A stretch of 63,502 nt of DNA, counting the filler, from Hausera hauseri (Eukaryota): the NCBI GenBank assembly GCA_046269625.1. It is 11 parts of 11 records of this genome, joined end to end, with 100 filler letters (N's around TTAATTAATTAA, not from the genome) between each part and the next. Parts side by side here need not be neighbours in the genome. Positions count along the whole stretch, not along the records: positions 1 to 4,759 come from JBJURY010447246.1; 10 more parts are not named here. One strand, given 5' to 3'. How positions within the stretch are numbered: the stretch's first letter is position 1; every line of letters begins with the position of its first letter. This document shows, in pieces, positions 1 through 50,980 of the stretch. Below the pieces are notes generated by a model. The model was not told the origin of the DNA, searched no databases, and saw nothing but the letters and a program-made list of their open reading frames with translations. A program made the translations under genes and the position numbers.

Positions 1-1689
1 TTCGCAACCGTTGATATCGGAGGGTTGCTCTCCGGGGGAGCTTCTCCACCATTAAACATGTATCTGTAAACAAACATGCAGATTTTAGCAGACATACTAT
101 CTCCAACGGCACTCATAAAAACTGAAAACCAACAAAAACCCAAAATATTATTCATACAACATTTTGATACCTGAATAAGTCTTATACCACTGGCTTTCAC
201 ATAATAATCACTTGGGACCGTCACAGGGGTCAGCCATGTTCCCTTAGAATCTACTTCGTCACTGTAAGACCCTTTATTAATGCACAATAATCCGAGACTG
301 TTCATTTGTCTTGTTACGGATTCAACATCATATCTTTCAACATCAGGATACTGGCCAGAACCAGCTAATATCACAACTAATTTGTTAAGTGTCAGTATAA
401 CAACAGCTACATTCAGTTCGTATAACCTTCCACGAACATGAAGGCCTTCCAATAAGTTTTGTGCTACTTCACGCCATCCGTTATTTTCTCTATACAGATA
501 GCCAACTATACAATATAAGGATGTCAAATCGAATTCTTTATTGCCTTTATTCGTTCGACTTTGATTTGTAAACTTTTTAACCAGTGTCAATAGACTTTTA
601 AATTGTTTGGGAAATTCCGTATCGTCTCCATCGTGGTTTCCTTTTAATTTATGGAATTCATTTGTTGTTTTGAATGTTTTTTCATCGGTTGGTTTTAATC
701 TTTCTGTGAAATTGTCCAATTCATTTTGCGACCAACAAATCCTTTTTATCAGTTGTCTTGTTTGCGATTTGGATCGTGCGATCTCACCAAAGAGTTGTAG
801 GATCACTTTTCTAGATTGCAAATTCATTATTTGCAAATTAACCAAAGGATCCAAATGTTTGATTTTGAATTTCATAAATTCAATTCTAAATTCAATTATC
901 TTTTCTATAGCATTGAAAAACAATGCATTGGATTATATAGGAAATTTGCTGTTAATTTATTACTTGAATTTTATGAGATATGCCTCATAATGGCTAATCT
1001 CATTTTTGTGGCTAATTTAATCATGTTTTCTTTCTTTTAAAAGCTGCAACATATAAAAACTCTAATTGCGTTATTTTTATACACTTCAAATATTATATCT
1101 ATCTTTTGCTCTTATCCATCCACATTTTTTGCTATTAAAATATCTTCAGCAATATTTTGATGACTTTTATACAAACATAAAAGAGGATTTAATTTCACGA
1201 ATTCGTCTGTTGGGAAATTCATACGATACTTAAACATAATGTAAATAATCTCAATAACTTTCGAATTCAAATTTTTGTTTTCTTATTCATTTATCCTCTT
1301 AGGTATTTCAGTTGCAATTTCATTTCTATTTTTCGTTCTTTTAAGTACGAATGAGATTAGTCGTTCTCCTTGAGTGGATAAAATTTTCGTCGCAATTTCC
1401 AAGTAAATATACAAATATAAACAATAGCCTTCTACGATTGTTCCCGGTTTCCCAGTTCTCAGAATTCCGCTGGAGATCACTCAACTATTATTTTTCACAT
1501 ACATTCAACCATTTCAACTTTGACAACCCTTAATTTTAACAAACATAGTGCACAGCACAATCAACATGAACACACATACATTCATATATACATTATATAT
1601 ATTTCATACATATATACACCCTATAATTTTCCCGTTCACCCTTAGTTAGTCGTTTAATGTCGATCGGATTGCCCAATCAAACAATTAGG

Positions 1690-2110
1690 TTCCGACAATG
1701 CGCGTGAAAATGACTGGTCCGGTAGTGATTCCAAAGGGCATAACATTAAATTCGTATATACCGTCATGTGTCTTAAATGCTATTTTAACGATCTTCGTCT
1801 TCTATCTCTACCTGCCAATATTCATATTGTAAGTCGAGCGTGGTGAACTATTTAGCTCCAAAACGTCTGTCCAAAGTTTCCTTTACCGATGGTAACGGCG
1901 AAAAATCCTTCATCATAAGTGTATTTAATTCTTGATAGTCGATACAAAATCGGTGCTTACTGGTACCTTTTGTCTTAACCATGAGTATAGGTAAATTCCA
2001 AGATCTGTAGCTTGGTCTAATTATGTCCGCCTTTAACATTTGTTCAACATCTTTGGTTATCTCTGGTCTTAATGAGTGTGGAGGAGGATACCATTTCGGC
2101 ATATTTTGAT
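1690..2110 (-). pseudogene. Gypsy reverse transcriptase N-terminal fragment
   Basis: ORF 1848-2102 plus read-through to FTTLDL..YWQV and YEFNVMPFG. Confidence 0.85.
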
Positions 2111-2506
2111 CATTTAAGTCTATTTCGTCGTTAGAAGCAGGCTTCTTTTTAGGCGGAATCGTAAGCCTTAAGGTTTTGGCTCGGCCAATATCTTATTCAT
2201 CTATCGCGATAATCGAACTATAGCGACAAAGTAGTTCGTAAAATCGACAATATGATTCTGGTGAAAATTTAGTCTCAACGTGGGGTGGAAATTCGGCACC
2301 CTTATATGATTTCTCCTCAATAGTGATTGATGATACTCTACACGTGTGTCCCAAAGTGGTATTATCGAACAGTTTAATCGGAGTTGGTGCGTTATTGGCT
2401 ATCCTATTGGCACGCGGCCTGTTGATACTCTTGTCAAAACATTGCTGAGCACGAGGTTTGGATCGAGCAACTCCCTTGGTTCGAAATATATTGGCTAATC
2501 GTCATT

Positions 2507-2947
2507 CTAACGTATCTGAGCATATATAAGAATTTCTATTTCGATTGCTATATTGGGTAATTGTCTCAGTAAGTCATATCCTAACACTATATCATCTGTT
2601 AATTGCTCCATTACTGAGAATTCATGACGAAAAGATTGTCCCATTATGTGAATTACCGGTTTCCATCGGAATTTACTTTTCGAATATTGTCTGAAAGCTC
2701 CAATGCTTCCTGGGTCTGTCGTAGGAGGTGGACATAATTGTTTCCGTAAGAAGTGTGGCATCGAATCATATTTTATCAGTGATATTTCAGATCCCGTATT
2801 TATCAGTACATAAACCTCCCAATCTTCCAATTGAATCTTTGCAAAGGACCTGCCTTTTCTTACTGTACCGTAATAGCTTGGCGCTATCTTAAGTTGTCGA
2901 ATCGTTTGACACTTTGTAGCCGTTGATGGTAACTTCCGTGGTTCCAA
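2507..2947 (-). pseudogene. Retroelement aspartic protease (catalytic D mutated, NTGS)
   Basis: VYVLINTGSEISLI ... HEFSVMEQLTDDIVLGYDLL. Confidence 0.8.
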
Positions 2948-3429
2948 CTGGTTGATCGATTAATTGTCTTAGCTCTCCGATAGGGTAGGGTTCGTTATTC
3001 GTACCATTAGTGTTTTTTACTTCTTGGCTTTTAACTGGCGGCTGAACATCTTGGTTTCGGAGATTGCGTGTCTCACAGATTCTGGTAAATAGTGACTGCG
3101 TTTCATTTGGTCTAGGTAATTTAAGTGAATATATTATACCGTGATCGTCGACTGCTGAGCGACGATGTGGAATAAACGTTCTCTGTGTTTCGTACATCTT
3201 GCGTAATATTCTGTAGCGTTTTGTTCCTTCGTAGAGGTCCTCTATGTTAAATGGCTTCCGATATACGTCTGTCTGACACGAGCTCATAGATTGTTTCTCG
3301 CAATCTTCATATATAGGTGCTGTTGGTGGCAATATTGGTAATGGTAATTTCATAACAGAGTAGTTTTTGTTCCTACCTTGCCTGGTGATGATGTCTCCTC
3401 ACTTAGGCTTCTCTTTATCTGAATTATTT

Positions 3430-4759
3430 CTTTATGTCTTAGCATTTATGAATTTTTGCCTGTAGTCGAATATACCTCTTTTCCGTTTTCGATTATGGTA
3501 GCCAACATATCGTTCTGCATTTGTTTTCCATTTACTCTCTTCATAAGCCTTTAAGAATTGGCCAAAGGGAGTAATAATAGCCGTTAAAATTTTGCATGAA
3601 AATCCTGTCAATGTAAATATCTCGTATCCATTTATGATGGCTTGAATTATAGCTTTTACCAGTTGAATGAAGAAGTATATAGCTAGAAGTCCTGATGCGG
3701 CTTGTCCGAATATCAGGAATCGTCCCCATATTTTGTATAATATTTCAGTGGTTACCTTCTTGTAATAGCCAACACCAAGTTAAGACTCCTATTTTGCTTG
3801 GTAACGCGAGTCCTTTAATACTGTATACATTGCTCTGTTTAATTCACGTGTACGTTGGCAAGGAAAAGCAAGAAATTGTATGAGCGCCTCTACTTCTTTT
3901 GGTCGATAAATAATCTTTGCGGCTGTATCTTGAAATTTGCCATCGGTTATTCCTTTTTTTAGGTTTGTCCCTGTCAATTTGGTAGGTGGTGCGATAATAC
4001 CACCGTTCGTTAGACTTACCCAGTCGGTCTCGCTATGTTTGAACATTGGCTCTCCTAAGCTGGTTTTACAGTCTCTTAAAATCATCGGTTGAGTGGCATT
4101 TGCCAACAACACTCTGGTAATTGGTGTTACTAATCTCGGTATATCCTGGTATATCACTGGGAGTTCTTGTATACACCTCTTCCCTTCCACATTAAACGGA
4201 ACGTCTTTGTTCTTGCACTGATACGTCAATAAGACCTCTCCGGTTACTCACCCAAAAACACCTTCCTTTATCGGAATTATTGGTGATGCCAACTCGGGAT
4301 TTGCGTATATTAGAGCTAGTTTAGTTCTCATGATATCCAAATCAAATTTGCCGTCGTTTGTTATCATGTTGTGGTATAATTTGGCTATTCTGGCTTGTCC
4401 TTTATAGAAGAAGTAGTCGTCTCTGTTCTTCAAGTAATCTTCAATCCGGATATCTCGAGTCTCGAGTTTGAATGTTCTGACGTTTATTTCTGTCTCGGCT
4501 ACGAAAAATGCCTCATAATTGGTGGCATACATTACGACGTCTCATCTGGTGATCATAGCTTTCTTTACAATTTTTAATCCATGAGTATTGGAAATCAGTA
4601 TAGTAGGTGTGGACTGTTTGGCTACATCTTGTCGTGTTTTAGAGTTAGTTTCTGTACCACTTATGTATCGTTTTCCTGTCGTCTCGTTAAATTTAAGTTC
4701 TTTAATTTTCATAAAGTTCAGTAGGGAAAAAATGGGAATTCGGGCACAGACCTTCCGGG
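3430..4759 (-). pseudogene. Chuvirus-like / herpesvirus gB-like class III fusion glycoprotein (env), C-terminal part, with in-frame stops
   Basis: A single frame read through stops gives DVVMYATNYEAFF ... RTKLALIYANPELAS ... GVFG*VTGEVLLTYQC ... RCIQELPVIY ... VTPITRVL ... IYRPKEVEALIQFLAFP ... IWGRFLIFGQAASGLLAIYFFIQLVKAIIQAIINGYEIFTLTGFSCKILTAI. This matches the motif order of chuviral glycoproteins (GEV..C, CY.ELPV, IY....L..FP, membrane-proximal WG.F..FG..SG plus TM). Confidence 0.85.
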
Positions 4760-24690: not shown

Positions 24691-27600
24691 TGTAATCCCA
24701 TCGATTTCAGATTTTGTAAAAACAAAGATGGCAATCCATTTTGCGTCCTAACGGTCAGTCAAGACGATCAAATTAAATGTGCAGAAGATTTGATTAATCT
24801 CATCACAGGAAAGATAGTTGGTGGTGTAACGTTGCGTCCACGCATTCTGGTCGATAAAGTGGTTGGCAATTCAAATTATATCGTTTTTCCTGAATCTGAA
24901 ACTGTCGATGATATGGTCAACACAACTCATTTCGAAAAGGGGTTTTATTTCGTTCAATTGTACACGGAACGTGGTTTGAACAATAACGTGGTGTTGTTTC
25001 TCAGAGATTTGTATCGGAATTATGAATTGAAACGGTTACCATCGCTGAATTTTGGTGAAATCGGGACGATCAATTGTTTGCCACGTTTTATTTCGATGAA
25101 GATCAGTTTCATCGTGTTCGGGTTTTGGATAAATCGGACTCATATCGGGTAAAGTTGATTGTTGCATTTTTATATCTTGGCTTTCTTTTAATGGATTAAT
25201 TTTTTTGCTTAATATTAAAGTGTATAGTTTATTTCAATTTTTGAAAATCAGGCAGTAAGTTTCTCTCAATATTACCTTTTCTTTTTCGTTTTGGAATAGT
25301 AATTTTCAAAATTGGGTAATTCTATTTTTAAAATCCCACAGGTCAAAGTCATGTTCATCGACTACGGTAACGAAGAATGGGTCACCGTTGATGATATCTA
25401 TCCAATCAGCAATAAACTCCGGGAAATACCTCCACTGGCTCACAAATGCACCATTGATGGTGTCGTTATCGTCGATCCGGAGCGTCACCAAATTGCGGCA
25501 GCAGACGTTCTCCACAAAAACATGAAAGCCAGTCTGGTAAAGGTATACGATTCGCAGCTGAAATCCGATCGTGTTGTGGCATTGGATTACACAGATTTCG
25601 CGTCGATTAGCTATCGGAGATATCTCGTCGGCGAAGGAATTGCCGAGCCGGTTCGATGCGAGAAAGTGACGAATAGCGTGGCTGTTGAACAAATTTCGAC
25701 ATTTGCCGATGAACTCGTCAATGGGCATTCGTCGCGTCAATGCACAGCAGTAATTACGCACATGGATAGTCTGACCGAATTCTATTTGCAACCGGATTTT
25801 GTTAGTAATAAGGCGAATTTGGATAAGGTATGTCAGTTGATTGATTCGGTAATGGAACATGATAGGTTGGTTGTAATGTTATTTATTGAATAAATTTGCT
25901 AAATACTCCAGAATCGATTTGGAATATTCCCGTGCAGATATTCGTTATTTAAGTCAATTCAGCGAAGATTGCAATTGGTATCGTTGCGAGGTTGTCAAGG
26001 ACAGATTTAGAAATGGTTACTGCATTGTGCGGTACATCGATTACGGGAATAGTGAACAAAAGACTGAGTTGTCTAGCCTGAAACCGCTGGTAAATAGAGT
26101 TAATGTTAATCAATGGTAATTCTGATGTTGTTCAGACAAAGGAATGGAATGCGGATGCTGATGCATTGGGGAAAATTGCGCCGTGTGCTGTCAGATGTAA
26201 ATTTGATGATGGGATGATGAGCCAGTTGAATGAACGTGGTGTGACGACTGCGGCATTTACTGAGATAATTAGTCAGACGAAAATGGTCAATGTGACTTAT
26301 ACAGAAGATGACGAATGGCAGGTTGGTGATGAATTTTTATCATGTAGAATTTGATGATGTCGGTGTAGGGATGGGTTATTCACGGAATGACGGTCGATGG
26401 GACTGATTTGTGGGGTGAGGTTGAGAAAACTGCTGCATCTGATGGAGGAATTGAGGAGTCTATACAGTACCGACTGACAAATATCGAGTCACCAGAACAA
26501 CTCTGGTTCCGTCTGGTAGACACACCGGATGAATCACGGAAATTGCAGCTGACTGCCATTGCCGAATGGATTGAACACGGTAGTCACGGTGAAGGGCACG
26601 TTCTGGCATTGGCGAAAGATGAATTGTACGGTGCTACGTTGGTAGATGGTAAACTGCACATGCGGTGTCGTATGATTTGCCGCAATATGAACAGAGTTGT
26701 CGTGCAAGATGTCGACACCGGTGTCTATCATATTGTCCCGCTGAAATCCCTTTTTTATCTGCCTGACGACATTTTGAAAATCGCTCCATTGGCATTGCAC
26801 GTGAGATTGGTACTAAAGAACATCCGTGTGCCGGAGGTGAGTCATATCCAATGATAATCGATAATCCAATGTAGAGAGAGGCCGAATTGAAAATGGAGAA
26901 GTTGCTGTCAATGAAAGACGTCCGTCTATTGTGGTGCGGTGAGGGGGAAATTAGTGACGTTATCGTGCGGGATTGTGGCAGTCTTGTCGACTATCTGACA
27001 AAATGCCGATGTATTCGTAACAGTACTCTCGATGATGATTGTCTCAATGATCTGCCGGAATGGCTGTTGCCTGTTGGCGAGGTCAGTGAAGTCGATTTCA
27101 ATTTACCCAGTATTGAACAATTGGCCGAATTACCAACGGAAATCAGTTATTTGAACGCTAAAGTGAAATTTGCCAGGAAAATGTTAAATAAACAAGGCCA
27201 ATGTGCGCTAGACGAATTGTGGTGTGTTGTCGACAATTGTGAATCAATTCGGGATTTGTGCATGAGTTGTGACAATGTCGAAACACTCTGTGACGATGTC
27301 GATAATTTATCAGACAAATTTGTCGATGCAGTTCGATCACCTAAAACGAAACCCAAAGATCTGGATTCGTTGATTAGCGGCAGGAAAATTCTCTGTGAAC
27401 AAATCATGTCACAACATCAGATCGTTGAGTCGTTGTTGTTGACATTTCCATACGAATCCGTTGTCCAGTTACGAGACGGCATCCATCGGATGAACACGTG
27501 CATCACCGGCATGCTCACCGTGTTCAACGGCACTACCGACGGATGTTTCCCTGCAGAAATTGACATTCGTACAGTCCAGTCGCAGGTCAATGCATACCGG

Positions 27601-29209
27601 GACAGTGATGAGTACGATCACCTGTGCAGCGAATTAGTGCCGTTGCGCCAGGCAACGGATTCGATGATGGCGACGTATCGCGGTGTTGTTGACCAAATGT
27701 GCCGTGACTACGATATCGGTGATCCATTTCCAGATAGAACTGACAGTACACCACTCATTGATGCAACATTCAAATTACAATCGATGCTATCGACTGAGAT
27801 GCAGAAGGTGCTCGACGTCATGGCACAACAGAATGTCGTTGCCAAATACAACATCGTCAATGTGCTGCTTAACGCCCATTGTTATCTGATGAGGCAGACA
27901 ACTATCGTTGATAGGCTGCTCACTGATTTGGGCAAATTGAAGAATCTCCGGCAGTTCTGTGAACTTCTGTTGCAGACGGACAATGATCTGATAAACAAGA
28001 TTGACGAGAATAACAAGGCAATCCTCGGACATCGATCTGTATTGCGGCATGCCGTGCCGGATCTAGAGGATGCTGAGGAATTGGACCTGCGTGATCGAAT
28101 GAAAGAACTGACGGAAAAGATCAATAAAGCACGGTTGCATATTCATAAATGTCTGCAGATGTCCAGTGAACTCATCGGTGGGTATTTTCCATTTTCTATC
28201 TTTATCATGCGCATATCCAGATGATGATGCTCGACAAGTGATGCTGCGTAAACCGGAATTGCAATTGAAGAATCAATCGGTGTTCTATGCCGATAACGGA
28301 TCACCGATATTCACATGGGATGCGATTTATTTTGATTTGTCTCAATTTGAGGTGCCATCTCAGCCATTCCCATCATCATTCGGTGGGAATGATGTTGTCA
28401 TTAGGAAAATTCAAGTGGCTGTCGACAATTTCAGGTCGGTCTTATCAAATGTTAGTGTTTATTGTCAACTGTTCAACGAGCGCAATGACAGCAGCCGCGT
28501 GAGTCCTTTGCGGATCTTCTACGCTTTCTTGTCTCGCACTGAGAACAACACAATTTACCTCATTCTACCGCCATGTGCCCATCTCCAGCAACTGCCACGT
28601 GACTTATTCAAATCATTGTCTCTTGTCGTCCATTTCTTCGAACGAGCCATCGAGTTAGTGACAGTTATGTGGCATCATGGATTTATTTATTGCCAAACGG
28701 ACATCGATGACGGCATCGTACTCCATATGCAGCACCAGTTTCCAGCATCGATGGCGTTACCGTTGCCATTGACATCGCTTGTCTATCGGGAACAGTTGAA
28801 ATGCGAGACGATCAATGTTTGTCTTTCTCATCTCGGGAAATTGTTCTTGGATGCTCTGGACAATGTTGAGGGGTTGATCGATCGGGATGGGGAAGTTAGA
28901 GAGTTGGCCAAATCGATTGCTACTTGTCAGGACGTGGAACAGGCTGAGTATTTCGTTGAGCGGCTGAAATTATGCGGCAGTTTTCTCGCAGTGCCCGATA
29001 ATAGGGATTGTTCGGGTAATGAGAATGAATCATCGATTGAACAGGTTAAGGAGGATGAGGTGGTGGAGAATGTTGAAAATGGGTTGAGTGGGGATACGGG
29101 AGATGAGTCGGGTGGGGGTGCCGTTATTTGCGGTGTAGATGCCAAAAATTATAGTGAGTCGTTACCAGTCACCAATGACGATGACGACGAATCATCAGAG
29201 TTAGAGTGA
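24691..29209 (+). CDS. STK31/TDRD8-like protein (RRM-like, multiple Tudor domains, coiled region, pseudokinase), 5'-partial, spliced
   Basis: Exons 24691-25148, 25342-25865, 25912-26089, 26136-26321, 26369-26836, 26875-28177 and 28221-29209 join in frame across GT-AG introns of 193, 46, 46, 47, 38 and 43 nt. Tudor motifs VKVMFIDYGN, WYRCEV..VRYIDYGNSE, VQDVDTG. The C-terminus resembles the STK31 kinase-like domain (PLRIFYAFLSR..IYLILP). One frameshift at ~25061. Confidence 0.8.
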
Positions 29210-32592: not shown

Positions 32593-35500
32593 TCAGTCAT
32601 CCTCGTCAGACACCGGTGGGTCAATTGAAAGTGAAGAGATGGATTGAAAATTTTCCTGAAATCTTTCTATATGACTTATACAAGTAATTATTTTTTGTTG
32701 TAGTAAGGCTGTGGAACATATTAAAGAGGCCCAGGCACTGTCCGCCACTGCAGAAGATTTCCTAATATGATAAAAGGTTGTAAAGGGACATGTTAAGTAG
32801 TGAAGGGAATCTCCGTAATCACCACAGGAGCAGGCCGAACATGGGGCACGGTTGAATTTGGATAGATAAGACGGGAACGGGCCGTGGTTGGAAAAAAATA
32901 TATAGAGATTTCTGTGGAAAAGTAGACGATCTTTGGAGACTGTTGGAAAAAAGCGATATGTGTAACGACCTGGAGATGTAGGATCTTCCCAACGTTCTTG
33001 CCAGGATGTTAAAAGTTTTTGATTGAGTTTCTTCTTTAAGGCCGATGGGGGAAGTGGAAGTAGGATGTCTGGCGAGGAGGAGAGATTGGAGGCTGCTGTT
33101 TTTGCCAAAGAGTCGGCCAGTTCATTTCCTCGTATCTCTGCATGTGCCTTCACCCAGTGAAAACCAATTTGTTTGGTGGTGGAGTTTATAAGCGTTAGAA
33201 TTTCAATAGCTAAAGGATTGCAATTTTGTAAGTTTTGGAGGATGAAGATACTAGAGAGGCTGTCCGTAAGAAGAATTACCGAAGAGTATTGCGAATTGAG
33301 AAACCAAATGAGGGAATGAAGTATTGCTGCCAATTCGGCCTGAAAGATTGAATTCTCCGATTTAAGAGCGAAACTATTTGTAAAAATTAGATCGTTGTTG
33401 TAAAAGACACAGAAGGCAGAGCCTGTGCCCGTAAGTAGGTGAGAGCCATCTGTATAAATTTGAAGGGGATATGAAGCAAAATCAGAATCTATTGTTATGA
33501 GTCGGGAAGAGGGATGCAGTGAATAACGTGAGGGTTTTGGGGCATATTCATTAGCTGTTATGGAGAGGTTTTGAAAACTATAGTTTTGGCGAAATCTGTA
33601 AGGAAGGGCAAAACCTATTTCTTTGTTAATTGTTAAATCAAGTGGAGGGATTCCTGTCATGACCTGTAGCGCTAATGTTGAGGTTTTCCTGTAGGCCCGT
33701 GAAACCAATAGAAGAGATTGGCGTTGTATGGTGAGTAGTAGTTGATGACCAGGATGTTGGGGTAATGTCGGGAACCAGACGGTCACTGCATAGACTATTA
33801 TCCTCTCTATAGCTGCGGTGTACCATGTTTTTAATATTGTTGGGGAAACTCCTCCATTGATTGAGGCGAATTTGTATAGGTTTTGTATCAAGTTATGCGT
33901 TTGTAATCGTTTTGAAGTAAGGTGGGGAATCCATGAAAGTGATTGATGCAGCGTGACTCCTAGATAAAGTAATTGAGTTTCTATTTTTATGGAGTGACCA
34001 TTTATTTTAAGAGTCGGGGGGCGATGTAAATAAGTATTGGTTGTAATAGGATGATGTCTTTGGCGTCTACGTGAGTTAATGGGTGGTTTACCATGACGGG
34101 GGAAAATTATCGCTTTAGTTTTATCATATGAAATTGAAATCTTAGTATTGATTGCCCAAAGAGAAATTTGCTGAAGAGCTGCATTCGTATTGGTCTCAGG
34201 GGCCTGTCTGGTCGCACCCCAGGAGATCAAAAGAAGATCATCCGCGTATGCTATTAGAGTGGAATTTAAGGAAGAGAAAGTTTTCAGTAAAGAATTTAAA
34301 TATATTTTCCATAAGAAAGGGCCAAGACAGGAACCCTGTGGACAGCCTTTATTAAAGTGAATCAATTCATCTGGGTGAAGCCAATCAAATATTGCAGAAC
34401 GGTTCGAGAGAAAAGACGAAACCACATTGAGGAGTTCCTGGGGAAGATTTAATGTATACAAAAGTAATTTTGTATGAGACCAAGGAAGGTTGTCAAAAGC
34501 GTTCTTAAAATCAATAGAGACCGCTGAGGAGTATTGGAAATTTTGTTTTGCTTTGTTAATAAACTTAAGTGCCGTATGAATTGCTTGATCATATGAATTT
34601 TTAACTGTAAAGCCAAATTGAGAGGGGTGAATTTGATCCGAGGTGAGAAGATGATGTTCTATGCGGTTTAATATTAATTTTTCATAAATTTTGCCGAAGA
34701 TTGGGAGGAGGGTGATTGGCCGATAGGAACTCTCTAATGTGGGATCCTTTCCTTGTTTTTTAAATAGCACGATCTCGCCTTTCTTCCATTGAGAAGGAAA
34801 ATAATTAAGTTGAAAAAGGGCATTATAAAGATGGGTAAAAAAATGCTGATTATATTGAAAGAGTGCTCGAATTATGTGGTTATCTATTTCATCTGGTCCC
34901 GGAGCTTTATTCTTGCGGAAGGAAAATATAGCTTGTTTTATTTCTGTGTTCGTGAATAATTGGGTCGGTGGGGAAAAATTAAATTGAAGTGGGAGAGGTT
35001 CTTCAGGGTTGTTACCAAATATGGACTGGAGAATAAATTTTTGCGTTGATGAGGGGGAAATTACTTCGTCTATGGGTAGGTTAGTAAGGGTTTGTTGGTC
35101 ATGAGTAACGCATTTTTGAAAGGCTAGCTTCTGTAATGGGCCAAAGGCCGAGACCGTGCGGGAACAAAAGGTGTGCCAGGACCTGCACTTTGCCTGAAGG
35201 ATCGCTTTTTTATATAGAGCTCGGTATTTAGTATAATTTAATTTTGATTGGGGTGACTGCAGGCGTTTATATGTGCGATATAAGGCTTTGAGTCTGTTTC
35301 TCTGTGCATGTAACTCTGTTGTCCACCAGGTGATTTTAGGGGTGTGATATGCATTTCTCTTTTTAAGAAATTTAGTTCAGTTCTTTATTAAAATATTTTG
35401 AAATTGCGAAAGTTGGTGTTCTATTGCCGAGGGAGAATCACAGGCGGTTAAAGGTAAAGGAATGTAAATCTTTGGATAAGGAGTGCAATAGGTTTGTCAT

Positions 35501-43559: not shown

Positions 43560-44680
43560 TTTGTGCAGAATGTGAAGAATGGAAAAAACTAAATGAAATA
43601 ATAGTAATCTTTTCTAAAAAACGTAGCCATTTAAAACAGGCTGTAACAAAAATGGTTCAAAAGGTCTGTGAATATGTTGAAAAAAATCCAAATGAAGGAA
43701 CTATGCTTGAATTAATAAACTGTCTGCGAACCATAACTGAAGGAAAGATTTACGTCGAAGTCGAACGGGCACGAATTAGCAAACGGTTAGCCGAAATGAA
43801 AGAGTAAAAAGGTGATATTGAATTGGCTGCTTCCATTTTACAAGGACTCCAAGTGGAAACGTCTGGCAGTATGGGGAAAAAAGAGAAAATCGAATTTATT
43901 CTTGAACAAATGAGATCTTGTTTGGCGAAAAAAGATACTGTACGAACTCAAATTACCAGCAAGATATCATCTCGATCATTTTTGGACGAGAGCCTAAAAC
44001 TATTGAAATTGAAATATTTTCGATTAATGATTGAATTGGATTTAGGGGAGAACAAACATCCGAATGGCAGTAAGCATTTTTATCAATTATATCAGACAAA
44101 AACTATAAATGCTGTCGATGCTAACCGTTTGGATAGTTTGAAAAATGTTATTATATATTTGTTATTATCTCCGTACGATAATGAATAGAACATTTTACTC
44201 TATTAATGTAAGCAAACATGCTCAAAAGATTTGGAGAAATTGCCAATGATGGAGGAAATTATTGATGCATTCTGCACAAAGGAAGTTATGTTATGGAGAC
44301 ATTTCTGCTCAAAATTCGAGAGCCAACTAAAAGTTGATTCTGTTTTCACAGGTGAAGATGGAAACAAACGATGGCAAGAACTCAACCATCGAGGAATCGA
44401 ACATAACATTCGAATTATGGCATCGTACTACACGCAAATTCGAATAAGCAACATAGCGAAAATGATGGATATTGATGAGAAAACCCTTGACAAATTTGTC
44501 TCGGAATTGGTAGTTTACAAGTCAATTGAAGCAAAAATCGATCGGCTTCCTGGAATCATGCGTTTCATTCAGTCGAAAGATGCTACCGACATGCTTAACG
44601 AATGGTCATACAATATCAACCAGTTACTTGGGTTGATGAAGAAAATCAAATGTATGCTATATGTTACCAAGTCTAAGTGA
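43560..44680 (+). pseudogene. PSMD12: Intronless 26S proteasome subunit Rpn5/PSMD12 pseudogene fragment
   Basis: SKKRSHLKQAVTKMVQ, LRTITEGKIYVEVERAR, LQVETSGSMGKKEKIEFILEQMR, EHNIRIMASYYT, AKIDRL; in-frame stops. Confidence 0.93.
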
Positions 44681-45294
44681 GATAAATCTAAAGATCGCGT
44701 GCATTTTAAACGAGGAATGCGATCTGACCACCGAAGTCACCGAAATAAACAAAATAGTCATGTATCTCCAAGTCCGAAGTAAGATGGAACAAGATTTATT
44801 CAAATGGAAAAGAACGAGAATAACAAGAATGTTAATGGTGATGAAAACGCGTGCGATCTCGTAACATTTTCCGACAATGAGAATTTTGTCGATTCAATAA
44901 GTAATGAGCAGATTCAAGATTGGATTAAAAAGTTTGATTCGGCTTCGGAAAACAGTAATGAGATTTGGATGTATACTTTGAAAGTCGTGAGACCGCTTGA
45001 CGATTATCGAATGAAGTTTCTTGAGAATTTTGAGTTTCTCTATAGTGATGAATCGGATAATTTTTCACTGGAAGACATTTTCAGTTATGACGGTGATCGA
45101 GAATTAACAATACAAAGATGCGATGAACTAAAAGAGTACCTTGACAGTTTGCCATGTAAAGGCCTAGAGCGACTGAGTAATTGTCATAAAATCATACGTA
45201 GTTCATTAATCGAAACATTGGAAGCTATTGTTGATAATTTACATCAAAAAATGGATAATAATCGAACTACGAATGAAGTTGAAGTAGAATTTAA

Positions 45295-45567
45295 GAAACT
45301 CTACGTGCCTCACTTTACCGTGCGATCTGTAAAGCCAGGTCGAACTACCGAGTTTCGTTTGTTAGACAGAGTAGTTTTCGTTGTCGAATGCCATTGCGTT
45401 CCGATTGGCCTTAGAGGTATAGTCATCGGCATCGAACCAAAGGCCAATGTTGATAATTGGATTGAAGCTTTCTTTGATAAAGAGTTCCCTGATGGTACTG
45501 AAATTCGTAGAAGTCAAAATCGATGCAACAGAATAGAACCTTACACGTTAATTGATGTTTCTCATGG
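45295..45567 (+). pseudogene. XRN1: XRN1 SH3-like domain fragment
   Basis: EFRLLDRVV..VPIGLRGIVIGI..FDKEFPDG..LIDVSHG. Confidence 0.88.
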
Positions 45568-45569
45568 AA

Positions 45570-45852
45570 TGAGTGCGCTTGTAGTGTATATTGAAAAAAA
45601 ATGGTTCCGACTTTAAACAAAGGAAGAATTTATGCGTCTGGACGGATATTTTCGAGTAAAGTACAAACTGGGTAGAAAGTTAGAATCAAGGGTCCGAATT
45701 ATGTTGTTGGTAAGAAAGAATACCCTTGTGCGAAAAGTATACAAAGAACAAACTTGATGGTGGGAAGGCATGTGGAGGCCATCGAAGATGTGCCGTGTGG
45801 TAATAATCGCAATCTTGTTGACACTGATCAATTCTTGGTTAAAACTGAGACA
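45570..45852 (+). pseudogene. EEF2: Elongation factor 2 domain II fragment
   Basis: [60 protein letters not shown]; frameshifts and a stop. Confidence 0.92.
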
Positions 45853-48578: not shown

Positions 48579-50980
48579 ATGAGAATAGACAACGCTGTAA
48601 TCATTTATAAGAACAAAATGTGGAATAGTGGCGAAGCAATACAAAGAATTCCACATGGGACAATAACAAATATCAATTGTGGACTGAAAGGAGGAAGTGT
48701 TAATGAAAACGAAGATTTCGAGAGTCGATTATTGGCCAAAGATGTATTAAGATACGAGTTAATAGTCCAAAGAAAATGGCTAACGATTGGTAGATTAACA
48801 GAATATGGATTTTAATGCCAAAACAATAAATACGATAAAACCTTCAAGAAGTTATCTATGGAGATCAGCGCATTGAAATTACTCGCCAGAAAACTAAAGA
48901 AAAAACAAGAATTAGCGGAATTGATCGATGAGTCAAAAAACATCGAAGTACAAAATGAGAAAGTAATAAAGATGATCCAAATGAAAAATCTTATGACGTT
49001 AAAAGACAAATCAGACGTGAAAATTCGAAATGAATATCTAGCACCAAAGTTAAAACGTATTGAGCTTCCGAAATTCGGTGGGAACGTTGCAGAATTTGAG
49101 AAATGGCGACAAATATTCAAAACGTGCGTAGACAAAACATCACTTTCTAGCATAGATAAGCAGATCCAATTAGAAAATTGTTTATATGGAGAAGCGAAAC
49201 GTTTAGTTCAAAGTTATGATTTCTCAGAAGATTCCTACAAAGCAGCAGTCGAAAAATTGGAACAATATTATGGAGGAAATCAGAGGAACTATGCTTCCCT
49301 CATGTCCGAAATTATGGAATTCCAGAAAATAAGTGTGCATAATATCAAAGAACTGGATTCCTTTGCTACGTTGTTGGATTCGGTCATCGTAAGGTTGAAA
49401 CATTTAGACCGTGAAATAGAGTTGGAAGGCGGTCTATTGTATCAAAATTTAATCCAAAAATTACCCGAAATTATGGTATTAACATGGGAGCGATATCGTG
49501 AAGATAAAGACAAAAAACGAAACGTACAAGACTTGAAAGTATGGATAGAGAAAGAAGCAGAGTTGAAACGTATTGCTGCGGAAGGAGTACATGGAATAAA
49601 TGTTTTGATGCCGAACAAAAATAGATAACTTGAGCGATCAGTAAAGAATTCGTTTTTTACTAATAAAAAGGAAGAAAAAGGAAAGTTATCGGACAAGATT
49701 GGGTTTGGTAATAAAGGAAAAGAAATGAAAGAAATGATAATTGTTGGAAAAATAAAGGGGTCCAACAGAGACCTTGCAAATATTTTTTAACTGGTAAATG
49801 CCAATTCGGTGAGTTATGTAGGTTTCAACATGAAAAGAGAGATCAGAATAGTTATAAGAATATAAATCAGAAACTCTATATATTTTCAAAGTGGAAATTG
49901 CAGATACGGTGGGGACTGTCGGTTCAAACATGGAGATTCTTCAAATACTTTGAAACGAGAAATCAATTACTCAAAGAATCTTGTTAGAGAATTAGATAAA
50001 ATTGAGAAATCTAAAAACCCTCGTTGACATTGACAGAACAAAATCACGATTGAACGAGAATTCTTGCCAAACAAATGAAGGTGATTATTCAGACAGGCGA
50101 TCTTACATGACAAAAATGGAGGAAGAAAAGTCTGAAGCACTAGATAAGATAGCTTTGAGGACTGTGTCAGTTTACTTAATTAACGAAAACAAGAAGATAG
50201 AAGTGAATATGTTATTGGATGACGCCAGCACTGACAGTTTCCTTGAAAAAGACATTGTACGACAATTAAAACTCAGTGGGAAAGAGAAAAACGTTACTGT
50301 AGCAGTAGTTGGAGGCATGCAACAAAACAGAAGATGACTAGAGTCCATATTATCTTACAAAGCTTGGATAACAGTATTCGTGAACAATTCAACGAGCTAT
50401 CCATGAGACAACCAACAGGAAAATGAATGTTGTCAACTGAACAATAGAGAAAAAACGATGGCTACATTTACGAAACATTAAATTTATAAAAATGGGGAAA
50501 GGAGAACATGTAGATGAAATTATAAGTGCCAATTATAGACACCTCCATAGATCCATAAAAGAAATATCGGGAAAACCAGGAGAATCACTAGCCCGATTGA
50601 CTCCTTTTGGTTGGACATGTGTAGGAATTCTGTATAAACGGAAAAGTAATATAATACGAAATAACTTAGTGCGGACGTACTGGACCAGGGTAGGCGAAGT
50701 GAACGATAATAACAAGATTGTAGGAAATTGAAAATTCGATTGAAGAAAAAGAAACCTAGTCGAAATTAGATAAAGAAATTCTCCAAATCACGAAGGATAA
50801 CATGAAGAAAACCGAAGATGAAAGGTAAGAAATCTTTCTACCATGGAAAAATAAAACATAAGAGATACCAAAATCTAGACAAATGGCAAAAAAGAGACTC
50901 GAATATCTAGAGAAGGAATTAAACTCAAATAATTCTGTGAGAACTCCTTACAAACAAGTTATCGACGATCATATCAAAAA
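48579..50980 (+). mobile_element. Decayed BEL/Pao LTR retrotransposon (gag DUF1759-type, protease, RT start)
   Basis: KLKRIELPKFGGN..FEKWRQIF..LYGEAKRLV..YKAAVEKLEQYYG; LLDDASTDSFL; ARLTPFGWTCVG; LPWK. Confidence 0.92.

What the first reader, a model, noticed from the sequence alone, without database searches (positions are those of the whole stretch)
1690..4759. Chuvirus/gB-like envelope glycoprotein placed upstream of pol in a gypsy element
Seen: a class III glycoprotein ectodomain plus TM, whose cytoplasmic tail continues in the same frame (through stops) into ORF 3353-2889 and is then one frameshift from the protease and RT. Established: env normally follows pol; gB-like or chuviral glycoproteins are known in some invertebrate LTR elements (e.g. 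the BEL/Pao elements Tas and Anakin). Inference: this is a retrovirus-like gypsy lineage with env before pol, possibly translated as an Env-linker-Pol polyprotein in which the glycoprotein tail tethers Pol to the budding membrane.
Basis: partly seen in the sequence, partly recalled or inferred. Interest (0 to 1): 0.8.

Follow-up and report, generated by a model that had tools for sequence, protein, structure and literature searches.

The report
Decayed envelope-before-pol gypsy retroelement
This is a broken, cut-off copy of a jumping gene that carries a herpesvirus-type membrane-fusion protein in front of its enzymes, a layout already published; its intact relatives put everything into one long protein whose fusion-protein tail would likely call in the cell's budding machinery.

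Summary
The minus strand holds the C-terminal part of a class III (gB/chuvirus-like) glycoprotein (Pfam E 2.7e-35; best fold matches are chuvirus G and herpes gB). A TM, a ~200-aa tail, a protease and half an RT follow. The copy is dead: at least 8 stops, 3 frame switches, no YxDD, and the contig ends inside Env. Env and RT both group with relatives that are single Env-PR-RT-RNaseH(-IN) ORFs (10 proteins, 5 with Gag markers), and related contigs tile across the linker. So it is one element, not a nested chimera, and the frame switches are probably lesions. The layout is published: in-frame env between gag and pol in planarian Burro (2019), and GAG-ENV-POL gB-type errantiviruses (eLife 2026). 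The scan noted it before on other DNA. Two details were not found in my searches. Late-domain-type motifs lie in the Env tail (PTAP here; 10 of 14 relatives against 4 of 50 env-less controls). A second signal-to-TM segment follows integrase in 9 of 9 complete relatives, with a tandem FN3 fold in the one modelled. Verdict: new member of a known kind.

The parts
3723..4757 (-). C-terminal part of a class III (gB/chuvirus-like) fusion-protein ectodomain; cut by the contig end at 4759; 4 in-frame stops
   Evidence: Pfam PF24664 E 2.7e-35; model and fold searches; stops
3657..3713 (-). Env transmembrane segment (residues 349-367 of the read-through), followed by a predicted helix to about 3510
   Evidence: hydropathy; model; same segment in relatives
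2905..3512 (-).
   Evidence: related contigs tile across it
3315..3326 (-). PTAP motif (TSG101-type late-domain consensus)
   Evidence: 0.26% of 20,000 shuffles of the linker hold P[TS]AP
2970..2987 (-). YPxxxL motif (ALIX-type late-domain or YxxPhi-like sorting signal); weak on its own
   Evidence: about 10% of shuffles hold it
2531..2845 (-). Aspartic protease, degenerate (catalytic motif not intact), in a different frame from Env
   Evidence: profile of relatives iE 2.2e-9; Pfam RVP E 0.024, below cut-off
2316..2542 (-). Protease-to-RT spacer homologous to that of relatives (the position where Burro has a dUTPase-like motif); frame switch near 2405
   Evidence: profile iE 4e-4 and 0.074; PR-to-RT distance 235 codons against 254-286 in 10 relatives
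1676..2315 (-). N-terminal half of a Ty3/gypsy RT; stops and a frame switch near 1785; ends before YxDD
   Evidence: profile iE 2e-41 and 2.8e-10; tblastn; tree

Best explanation
This is a decayed, truncated copy of a Ty3/gypsy element whose gB-like env lies upstream of protease and RT, and whose active form likely made one membrane-threaded Gag-Env-Pol polyprotein, as its relatives' single ORFs would. Shown: the order Env-TM-tail-PR-spacer-RT in this copy, and single ORFs with an internal hydrophobic signal-like segment before Env in relatives. Inferred, in order: Gag is made in the cytosol. The internal signal sends the gB ectodomain into the ER lumen, and signal peptidase cuts in front of it. 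The TM stops transfer, so tail, PR, RT/RNase H and integrase stay cytosolic and hang on Env. Env trimers concentrate Pol under the membrane. Late-domain-type motifs in the tail recruit ESCRT for budding. The protease then frees the enzymes, and gB fuses the particle with a neighbouring or germ-line cell.
For: Nine of the 10 best Env hits continue in frame into protease(s); the tenth ends just after the TM. Ten proteins hold Env-PR-RT in one ORF (P0002, 4, 8, 17, 19, 152, 155, 245, 250, 267), five of them with a Gag or CCHC marker in front. An RT-only search from P0002 listed 120 proteins: the three others with PF24664 are 64-71% identical to it; env-less ones are 41-53%, except P0277 at 62%. 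The window's spacer+RT piece scores the Env-Pol proteins at ranks 1-7 of 126 and groups with all 11 in a 51-row tree (92/71). Its Env is sister to P0002 (SH-aLRT 96) in a 19-row clade with 14 Env-PR proteins. In run X1, two listed contigs bridge the tail/protease frame switch with one gap each, and others overlap from protease through tail into the TM. A signal-like segment precedes Env in 9 of 9 printed. Late-domain consensus motifs lie within 120 aa before the first PR in 10 of 14 relatives (shuffle mean 1.4, max 7) against 4 of 50 env-less gypsy proteins. The layout is published.
Against: No gag, signal peptide or 5' LTR can be seen (contig end), and no single read or contig spans Env to RT (one run, kind unknown). 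The RT placement is unstarred and on a very long branch (2.41). With the RT part alone, Env-Pol proteins take ranks 1-4 but the other seven fall to 17-103, and the comparison set was seeded from P0002. P0277 was labelled Env-Pol only because its contig length equals that of P0007. The tail has no sequence homologue among held proteins and is longer (about 200 aa) than in most relatives. The 14 relatives are not independent. YPxL also fits a YxxPhi endocytosis signal. Four of 14 have no motif.
Confidence: 0.8

Rival explanations
1. The element is one unit, but Pol is reached by a programmed frameshift or read-through after the Env tail, so that Gag-Env is abundant and Pol rare.
For: This copy does switch frame between tail and protease. 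A 1:1:1 Gag:Env:Pol ratio is an odd demand for a particle (own reasoning). P0007 ends just after the TM.
Against: Ten relatives run through without a break. Contigs of related copies that bridge the switch align with a gap, so they differ in length from this copy there. The copy has many other lesions.
Confidence: 0.1
2. Env and pol come from two different elements, joined by nesting or recombination in the 2950-3450 region.
For: The linker has no homologue. Summed contig depth is lower and uneven across it. The RT tree support is moderate.
Against: Env and RT point to the same set of relatives. Overlapping related contigs cross both linker borders. No direct repeat of 14 nt or more brackets the linker (a 4-6-nt TSD would not be seen).
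Confidence: 0.06
3. Assembly artefact: a mosaic contig collapsed from many diverged repeats.
For: High-copy family (8,068 contigs laid), and the contig is short.
Against: The order and spacing match independent single-ORF relatives, so a mosaic would still reflect the family's layout.
Confidence: 0.04

Closest known systems
GAG-ENV-POL 'ancient errantiviruses' with HSV/gB-type ENV, especially Platyhelminthes C1a (Chary & Hayashi, eLife 2026, PMC13524379; abstract, sections 5 part 1, 6, 9 part 1, 14, 22, passages, and rows of supplements 1 and 2 read)
   Same: Ty3/gypsy pol, gB-type env placed before pol. By eye, the window's first ~90 residues resemble the Schmidtea rows of supplement 2 far more than the nematode rows shown; not computed.
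   Different: This copy is defective and partial. The main text has 0 occurrences of polyprotein, frameshift, late domain, ESCRT, budding or fibronectin; figures were not seen.
Burro / GYPSM1 giant gypsy elements of planarians (Arkhipova & Yushenova 2019, PMC6431247; section 7 and passages read)
   Same: env in frame between gag and pol in one polyprotein, with hits to mononegavirus fusion proteins, and a long PR-RT spacer. Relatives found here also carry Bcl-2-like (P0007) and ankyrin (P0152, 4,844 aa) domains.
   Different: Accessory domains and giant size cannot be seen in this 3-kb fragment. The nearest relative, P0002, is a compact 2,627-aa ORF. No direct comparison with Burro sequences was made.
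Nematode NERVs (Sacco et al. 2022, J Gen Virol; not held; only its citation in PMC13524379 was seen)
   Same: Flipped env/pol order (as cited). I recall a continuous gag-env-pro-pol ORF; this is recalled, not read.
   Different: Nematode hosts; relation to this element not tested.
BEL/Pao elements with gB/chuviral glycoproteins (Tas recalled; the mosquito elements of Dezordi 2020 seen only in a search listing and as cited in PMC13524379)
   Same: Same glycoprotein class.
   Different: env lies 3' of pol there. The one BEL-type hit (P0066, DUF5641 then Env) sits in the other Env clade.

Membership tests
GAG-ENV-POL gB-type Ty3/gypsy (errantivirus) lineage | Ty3/gypsy-type pol | tested here: met
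   PR then RT, colinear with PR-RT-RH-IN relatives; nests among gypsy RTs; no BEL or copia RTs were in the tree
GAG-ENV-POL gB-type Ty3/gypsy (errantivirus) lineage | HSV/gB-type (class III) ENV with TM | tested here: met
GAG-ENV-POL gB-type Ty3/gypsy (errantivirus) lineage | ENV upstream of POL within 2 kb, same element | tested here: met
   about 0.8 kb from TM to PR
GAG-ENV-POL gB-type Ty3/gypsy (errantivirus) lineage | GAG upstream of ENV | not testable with these tools
   contig ends at 4759, no genome held; Gag or CCHC markers present in relatives
GAG-ENV-POL gB-type Ty3/gypsy (errantivirus) lineage | LTR pair and tRNA primer-binding site | tested here: inconclusive
   only one end is on the contig; no long direct repeat; a possible 3' LTR start near 1618 is by eye only
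Intact errantivirus (catalogue criterion of PMC13524379) | Full-length RT and integrase in continuous ORFs | tested here: not met
   stops, three frame switches, no YxDD, RNase H or IN; not filed as intact
Burro/GYPSM1 | env in frame with pol | tested here: inconclusive
   broken in this copy; in frame in 10 relatives
Burro/GYPSM1 | dUTPase-like motif between PR and RT | tested here: inconclusive
   spacer homologous to relatives; dUTPase identity itself not tested
Burro/GYPSM1 | Giant size and BIR/BCL2/MATH/ankyrin accessory domains | not testable with these tools
   outside the contig; not filed as Burro
BEL/Pao with gB-like env (Tas, Anakin type) | env 3' of integrase | tested here: not met
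   env is 5' of the protease

The most novel reading that the evidence does not exclude
This lineage builds its particle like a flavivirus-style membrane polyprotein rather than like a retrovirus. Budding signals sit in the Env tail instead of Gag (PTAP and YPxnL motifs between TM and protease). The polyprotein ends, behind integrase, in a second type I membrane protein with fibronectin-III domains that serves as the receptor-binding partner of the gB-type fusogen, the role that gD/gH/gL play for herpes gB.
Probability: 0.3. Interest if true: 0.65.

Novelty: new member of a known kind. Interest (0 to 1): 0.27.

Why it matters
As found, it adds one dead copy to a published layout. The value lies in the family. 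PMC13524379 (discussion) states that the entry mechanism of gB-carrying errantiviruses is unknown, since herpes gB needs partner glycoproteins. The relatives collected here offer two concrete, testable candidates: late-domain motifs in the Env tail for release, and a post-integrase FN3 membrane protein for attachment. The second lies outside the window and rests on relatives only.

Tried and rejected
No whole genome was held. Word-index protein searches found nothing for the Env read-through or the RT piece. The PDB sequence search found only chance hits. A metagenome scan with P0002 gave no locus, so no DNA context of relatives was seen. No RNA holder was listed. The ESM Atlas gave no answer for the linker or for P0154. 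A second, degenerate protease at the end of the linker was suspected by eye and not supported by a profile of 33 protease copies. The upstream-reading ORF 932-3 matches no held protein and no Pfam family above cut-off, so it is not counted as part of the element. No CpG depletion was seen in the element. In one search the linker of P0003 was mislocated; the counts quoted are from the corrected. The pattern 'hYP' was chosen after seeing the data and is not used. Sacco 2022 and Grohme 2018 are not held. Literature searches behind 'not found': late domain + retrotransposon + ESCRT + envelope + gypsy, 0 papers; chuvirus/tail/late domain/ALIX, no chuvirus paper among 10 listed; fibronectin type III + LTR retrotransposon + gypsy + integrase + transmembrane, 1 unrelated paper; gag-env-pol, 1 work. 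One search returned only unrelated papers. Subscription papers, figures and bioRxiv supplements were not seen and may describe these features.

Full report
Setting. The window is a string of short contigs joined by N-linkers. The finding lies on the first (1-4759) and is cut by its end. No whole genome is held. The host is not shown; earlier unchecked notes on this genome suggest a flatworm.

Observation. On the minus strand one frame runs from 4757 to 2889 with six internal stops. Residues 72-412 match Pfam PF24664 (E 2.7e-35, profile positions 271-608 of 653), so the N-terminal part of the ectodomain is missing. A TM lies at 349-367. An AlphaFold model on a 72-row alignment is confident over most of 50-410 and disordered after 420. 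Its best viral matches are chuvirus-like glycoproteins (E 6.7e-19; 48 at E<=0.001). In the PDB the first ten rows are all herpesvirus gB, though none reaches E 0.001. VIA-align ranks HSV-1 gB first (Z 6.8, 250 aligned), tied with unrelated helices. Profiles built from relatives place a protease at 2845-2531, a spacer, and RT from about 2300 to 1676. There are three frame switches (near 2905, 2405, 1785) and two more stops in the RT frame. RT ends before YxDD, and no RNase H or integrase follows. The copy cannot be active.

One element or two? The exhaustive search gave 358 hits. Nine of the best ten continue in frame from Env into protease. Ten proteins hold Env-PR-RT in a single ORF, five with Gag or zinc-knuckle markers in front. 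Coming from the RT side, a search with the RT of P0002 listed 120 of 3,116 hits. The three other proteins with the fusion domain are 64-71% identical to it; env-less ones are 41-53%, except P0277 (62%), which I link to Env-bearing P0007 only by equal contig length. The window's own spacer+RT piece ranks Env-Pol proteins 1-7 of 126; with RT alone they take ranks 1-4 and the rest scatter to 103. In a 51-row tree (125 rows thinned to 47, plus four window pieces) it groups with all 11, at 92/71 on a long branch: suggestive, not firm. In a 39-row Env tree (39 of 134 rows chosen) it is sister to P0002 (96) within a clade of 14 Env-PR proteins and four proteins that end early. The counter-arrangements among the hits (IN-Env in P0079, BEL-type in P0066) sit in the other clade. 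In the one public run that holds the family, 8,068 contigs lie on the contig. Of the few pieces listed, two bridge the tail/protease switch with one gap each, and others overlap through the tail into the TM. None spans the whole. No repeat of 14 nt or more brackets the linker. A nested insertion is therefore unlikely, and the frame switches are most simply lesions.

The linker. It has no homologue among held proteins. It carries PTAP (0.26% of shuffles) and YPxxxL (10%). The three late-domain consensus types and their partners TSG101, Nedd4 and ALIX are from PMC1635732 (passages). Within 120 aa before the first protease, 10 of 14 relatives have such a motif (shuffle mean 1.4), against 4 of 50 env-less gypsy proteins; YPxL 7 of 14 against 0 of 50. 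The same motifs are enriched in tails of stand-alone glycoprotein hits (33 of 81), so the linker is best seen as the glycoprotein's cytoplasmic tail. That an ESCRT-recruiting tail can by itself drive budding is shown for an engineered spike (PMC10121106, abstract only). Caveats: the sequences are related, and YPxL also fits an endocytosis signal.

How it likely worked. Shown: gene order here; single ORFs and a signal-like segment before Env in 9 of 9 relatives printed. Inferred: co-translational threading (Gag cytosolic, Env lumenal, Pol cytosolic on the Env tail), signal-peptidase and protease processing, ESCRT-driven release, gB-mediated fusion. Confidence: about 0.8 for one element with a polyprotein, about 0.4 for the late-domain function. 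Open: how a workable Gag:Pol ratio is reached.

What is known. [quoted passage not shown] Relatives here show Bcl-2-like and ankyrin matches. PMC13524379 reports GAG-ENV-POL elements with gB-type ENV in Nematoda, Bryozoa and Platyhelminthes, with nine flatworm entries. By eye the window's Env start resembles the Schmidtea rows. Sacco 2022 could not be read. The scan has noted this layout before on other genomes. The element works like these and is filed as a decayed member of the GAG-ENV-POL gB-type lineage; it is not filed as Burro proper or as an intact errantivirus.

Beyond the window. Nine of nine complete relatives end in a second signal-ectodomain-TM unit after integrase, with a tandem FN3 fold in the one modelled. 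My searches did not find this or the tail motifs in print, but figures, subscription papers and some supplements were not seen. Whether this copy's family has the second protein is unknown.

Verdict. Observation partly confirmed; interpretation right in biology, not new. New member of a known kind; interest 0.27. The novel case has probability 0.3 and interest 0.65 if true.

Noticed in passing
relatives P0002, P0004, P0017, P0152, P0155, P0245, P0250, P0267, P0277 (not in the window): Behind integrase, 9 of 9 proteins with a complete C-terminus have two or more hydrophobic segments (signal-like, then TM) around a putative ectodomain. The P0155 ectodomain, folded on 3 sequences (pLDDT 80.7), matches tandem fibronectin-III domains (E 1e-6; Z 9.2). 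P0245 and P0250 have a short Cys-rich one instead.
   Followed up: partly
relatives P0003, P0004, P0005, P0009, P0011, P0152, P0155, P0250, P0267: Several protease-like copies per polyprotein, between Env and RT and also after integrase; P0152 has seven motif matches. Role unknown.
   Followed up: partly
stand-alone 600-760-aa glycoprotein hits: Their last 80 residues hold late-domain consensus motifs in 33 of 81 (shuffle mean 5.5, max 14; YPxL 17, P[TS]AP 11). The motifs may have come with the glycoprotein. That chuviruses lack a matrix protein is recalled, not checked; the proteins are unnamed and related.
   Followed up: partly
window 1430-1645 (-): Purine-rich stretch followed by TG at 1618, and high summed depth in run X1 down to about 1430: possibly the 3' LTR, which would make this an internally deleted copy.
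   Followed up: no
window 3-932 (-): 310-codon open frame with no family match above cut-off.
   Followed up: partly
P0002 (HBK71150.1): The closest relative is filed under a Flavobacteriaceae MAG, most likely eukaryotic contamination of that bin.
   Followed up: no
window 25303-29209 (+): Long frames with two Tudor-domain matches, on their own contig.
   Followed up: no
window 44207-45616 (+): Adjacent fragments of RPN5/PSMD12 (PCI, RPN5_C) and XRN1, resembling the host-gene patchworks of earlier notes on this genome (unchecked).
   Followed up: no
window 32593-35376 (-): 927-aa RT + RNase H frame, probably a non-LTR element; other gypsy pieces at about 7.5-11.7 kb and 18-24 kb, and a DUF1759 (BEL/Pao-type gag) frame at 48816-49628.
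   Followed up: no
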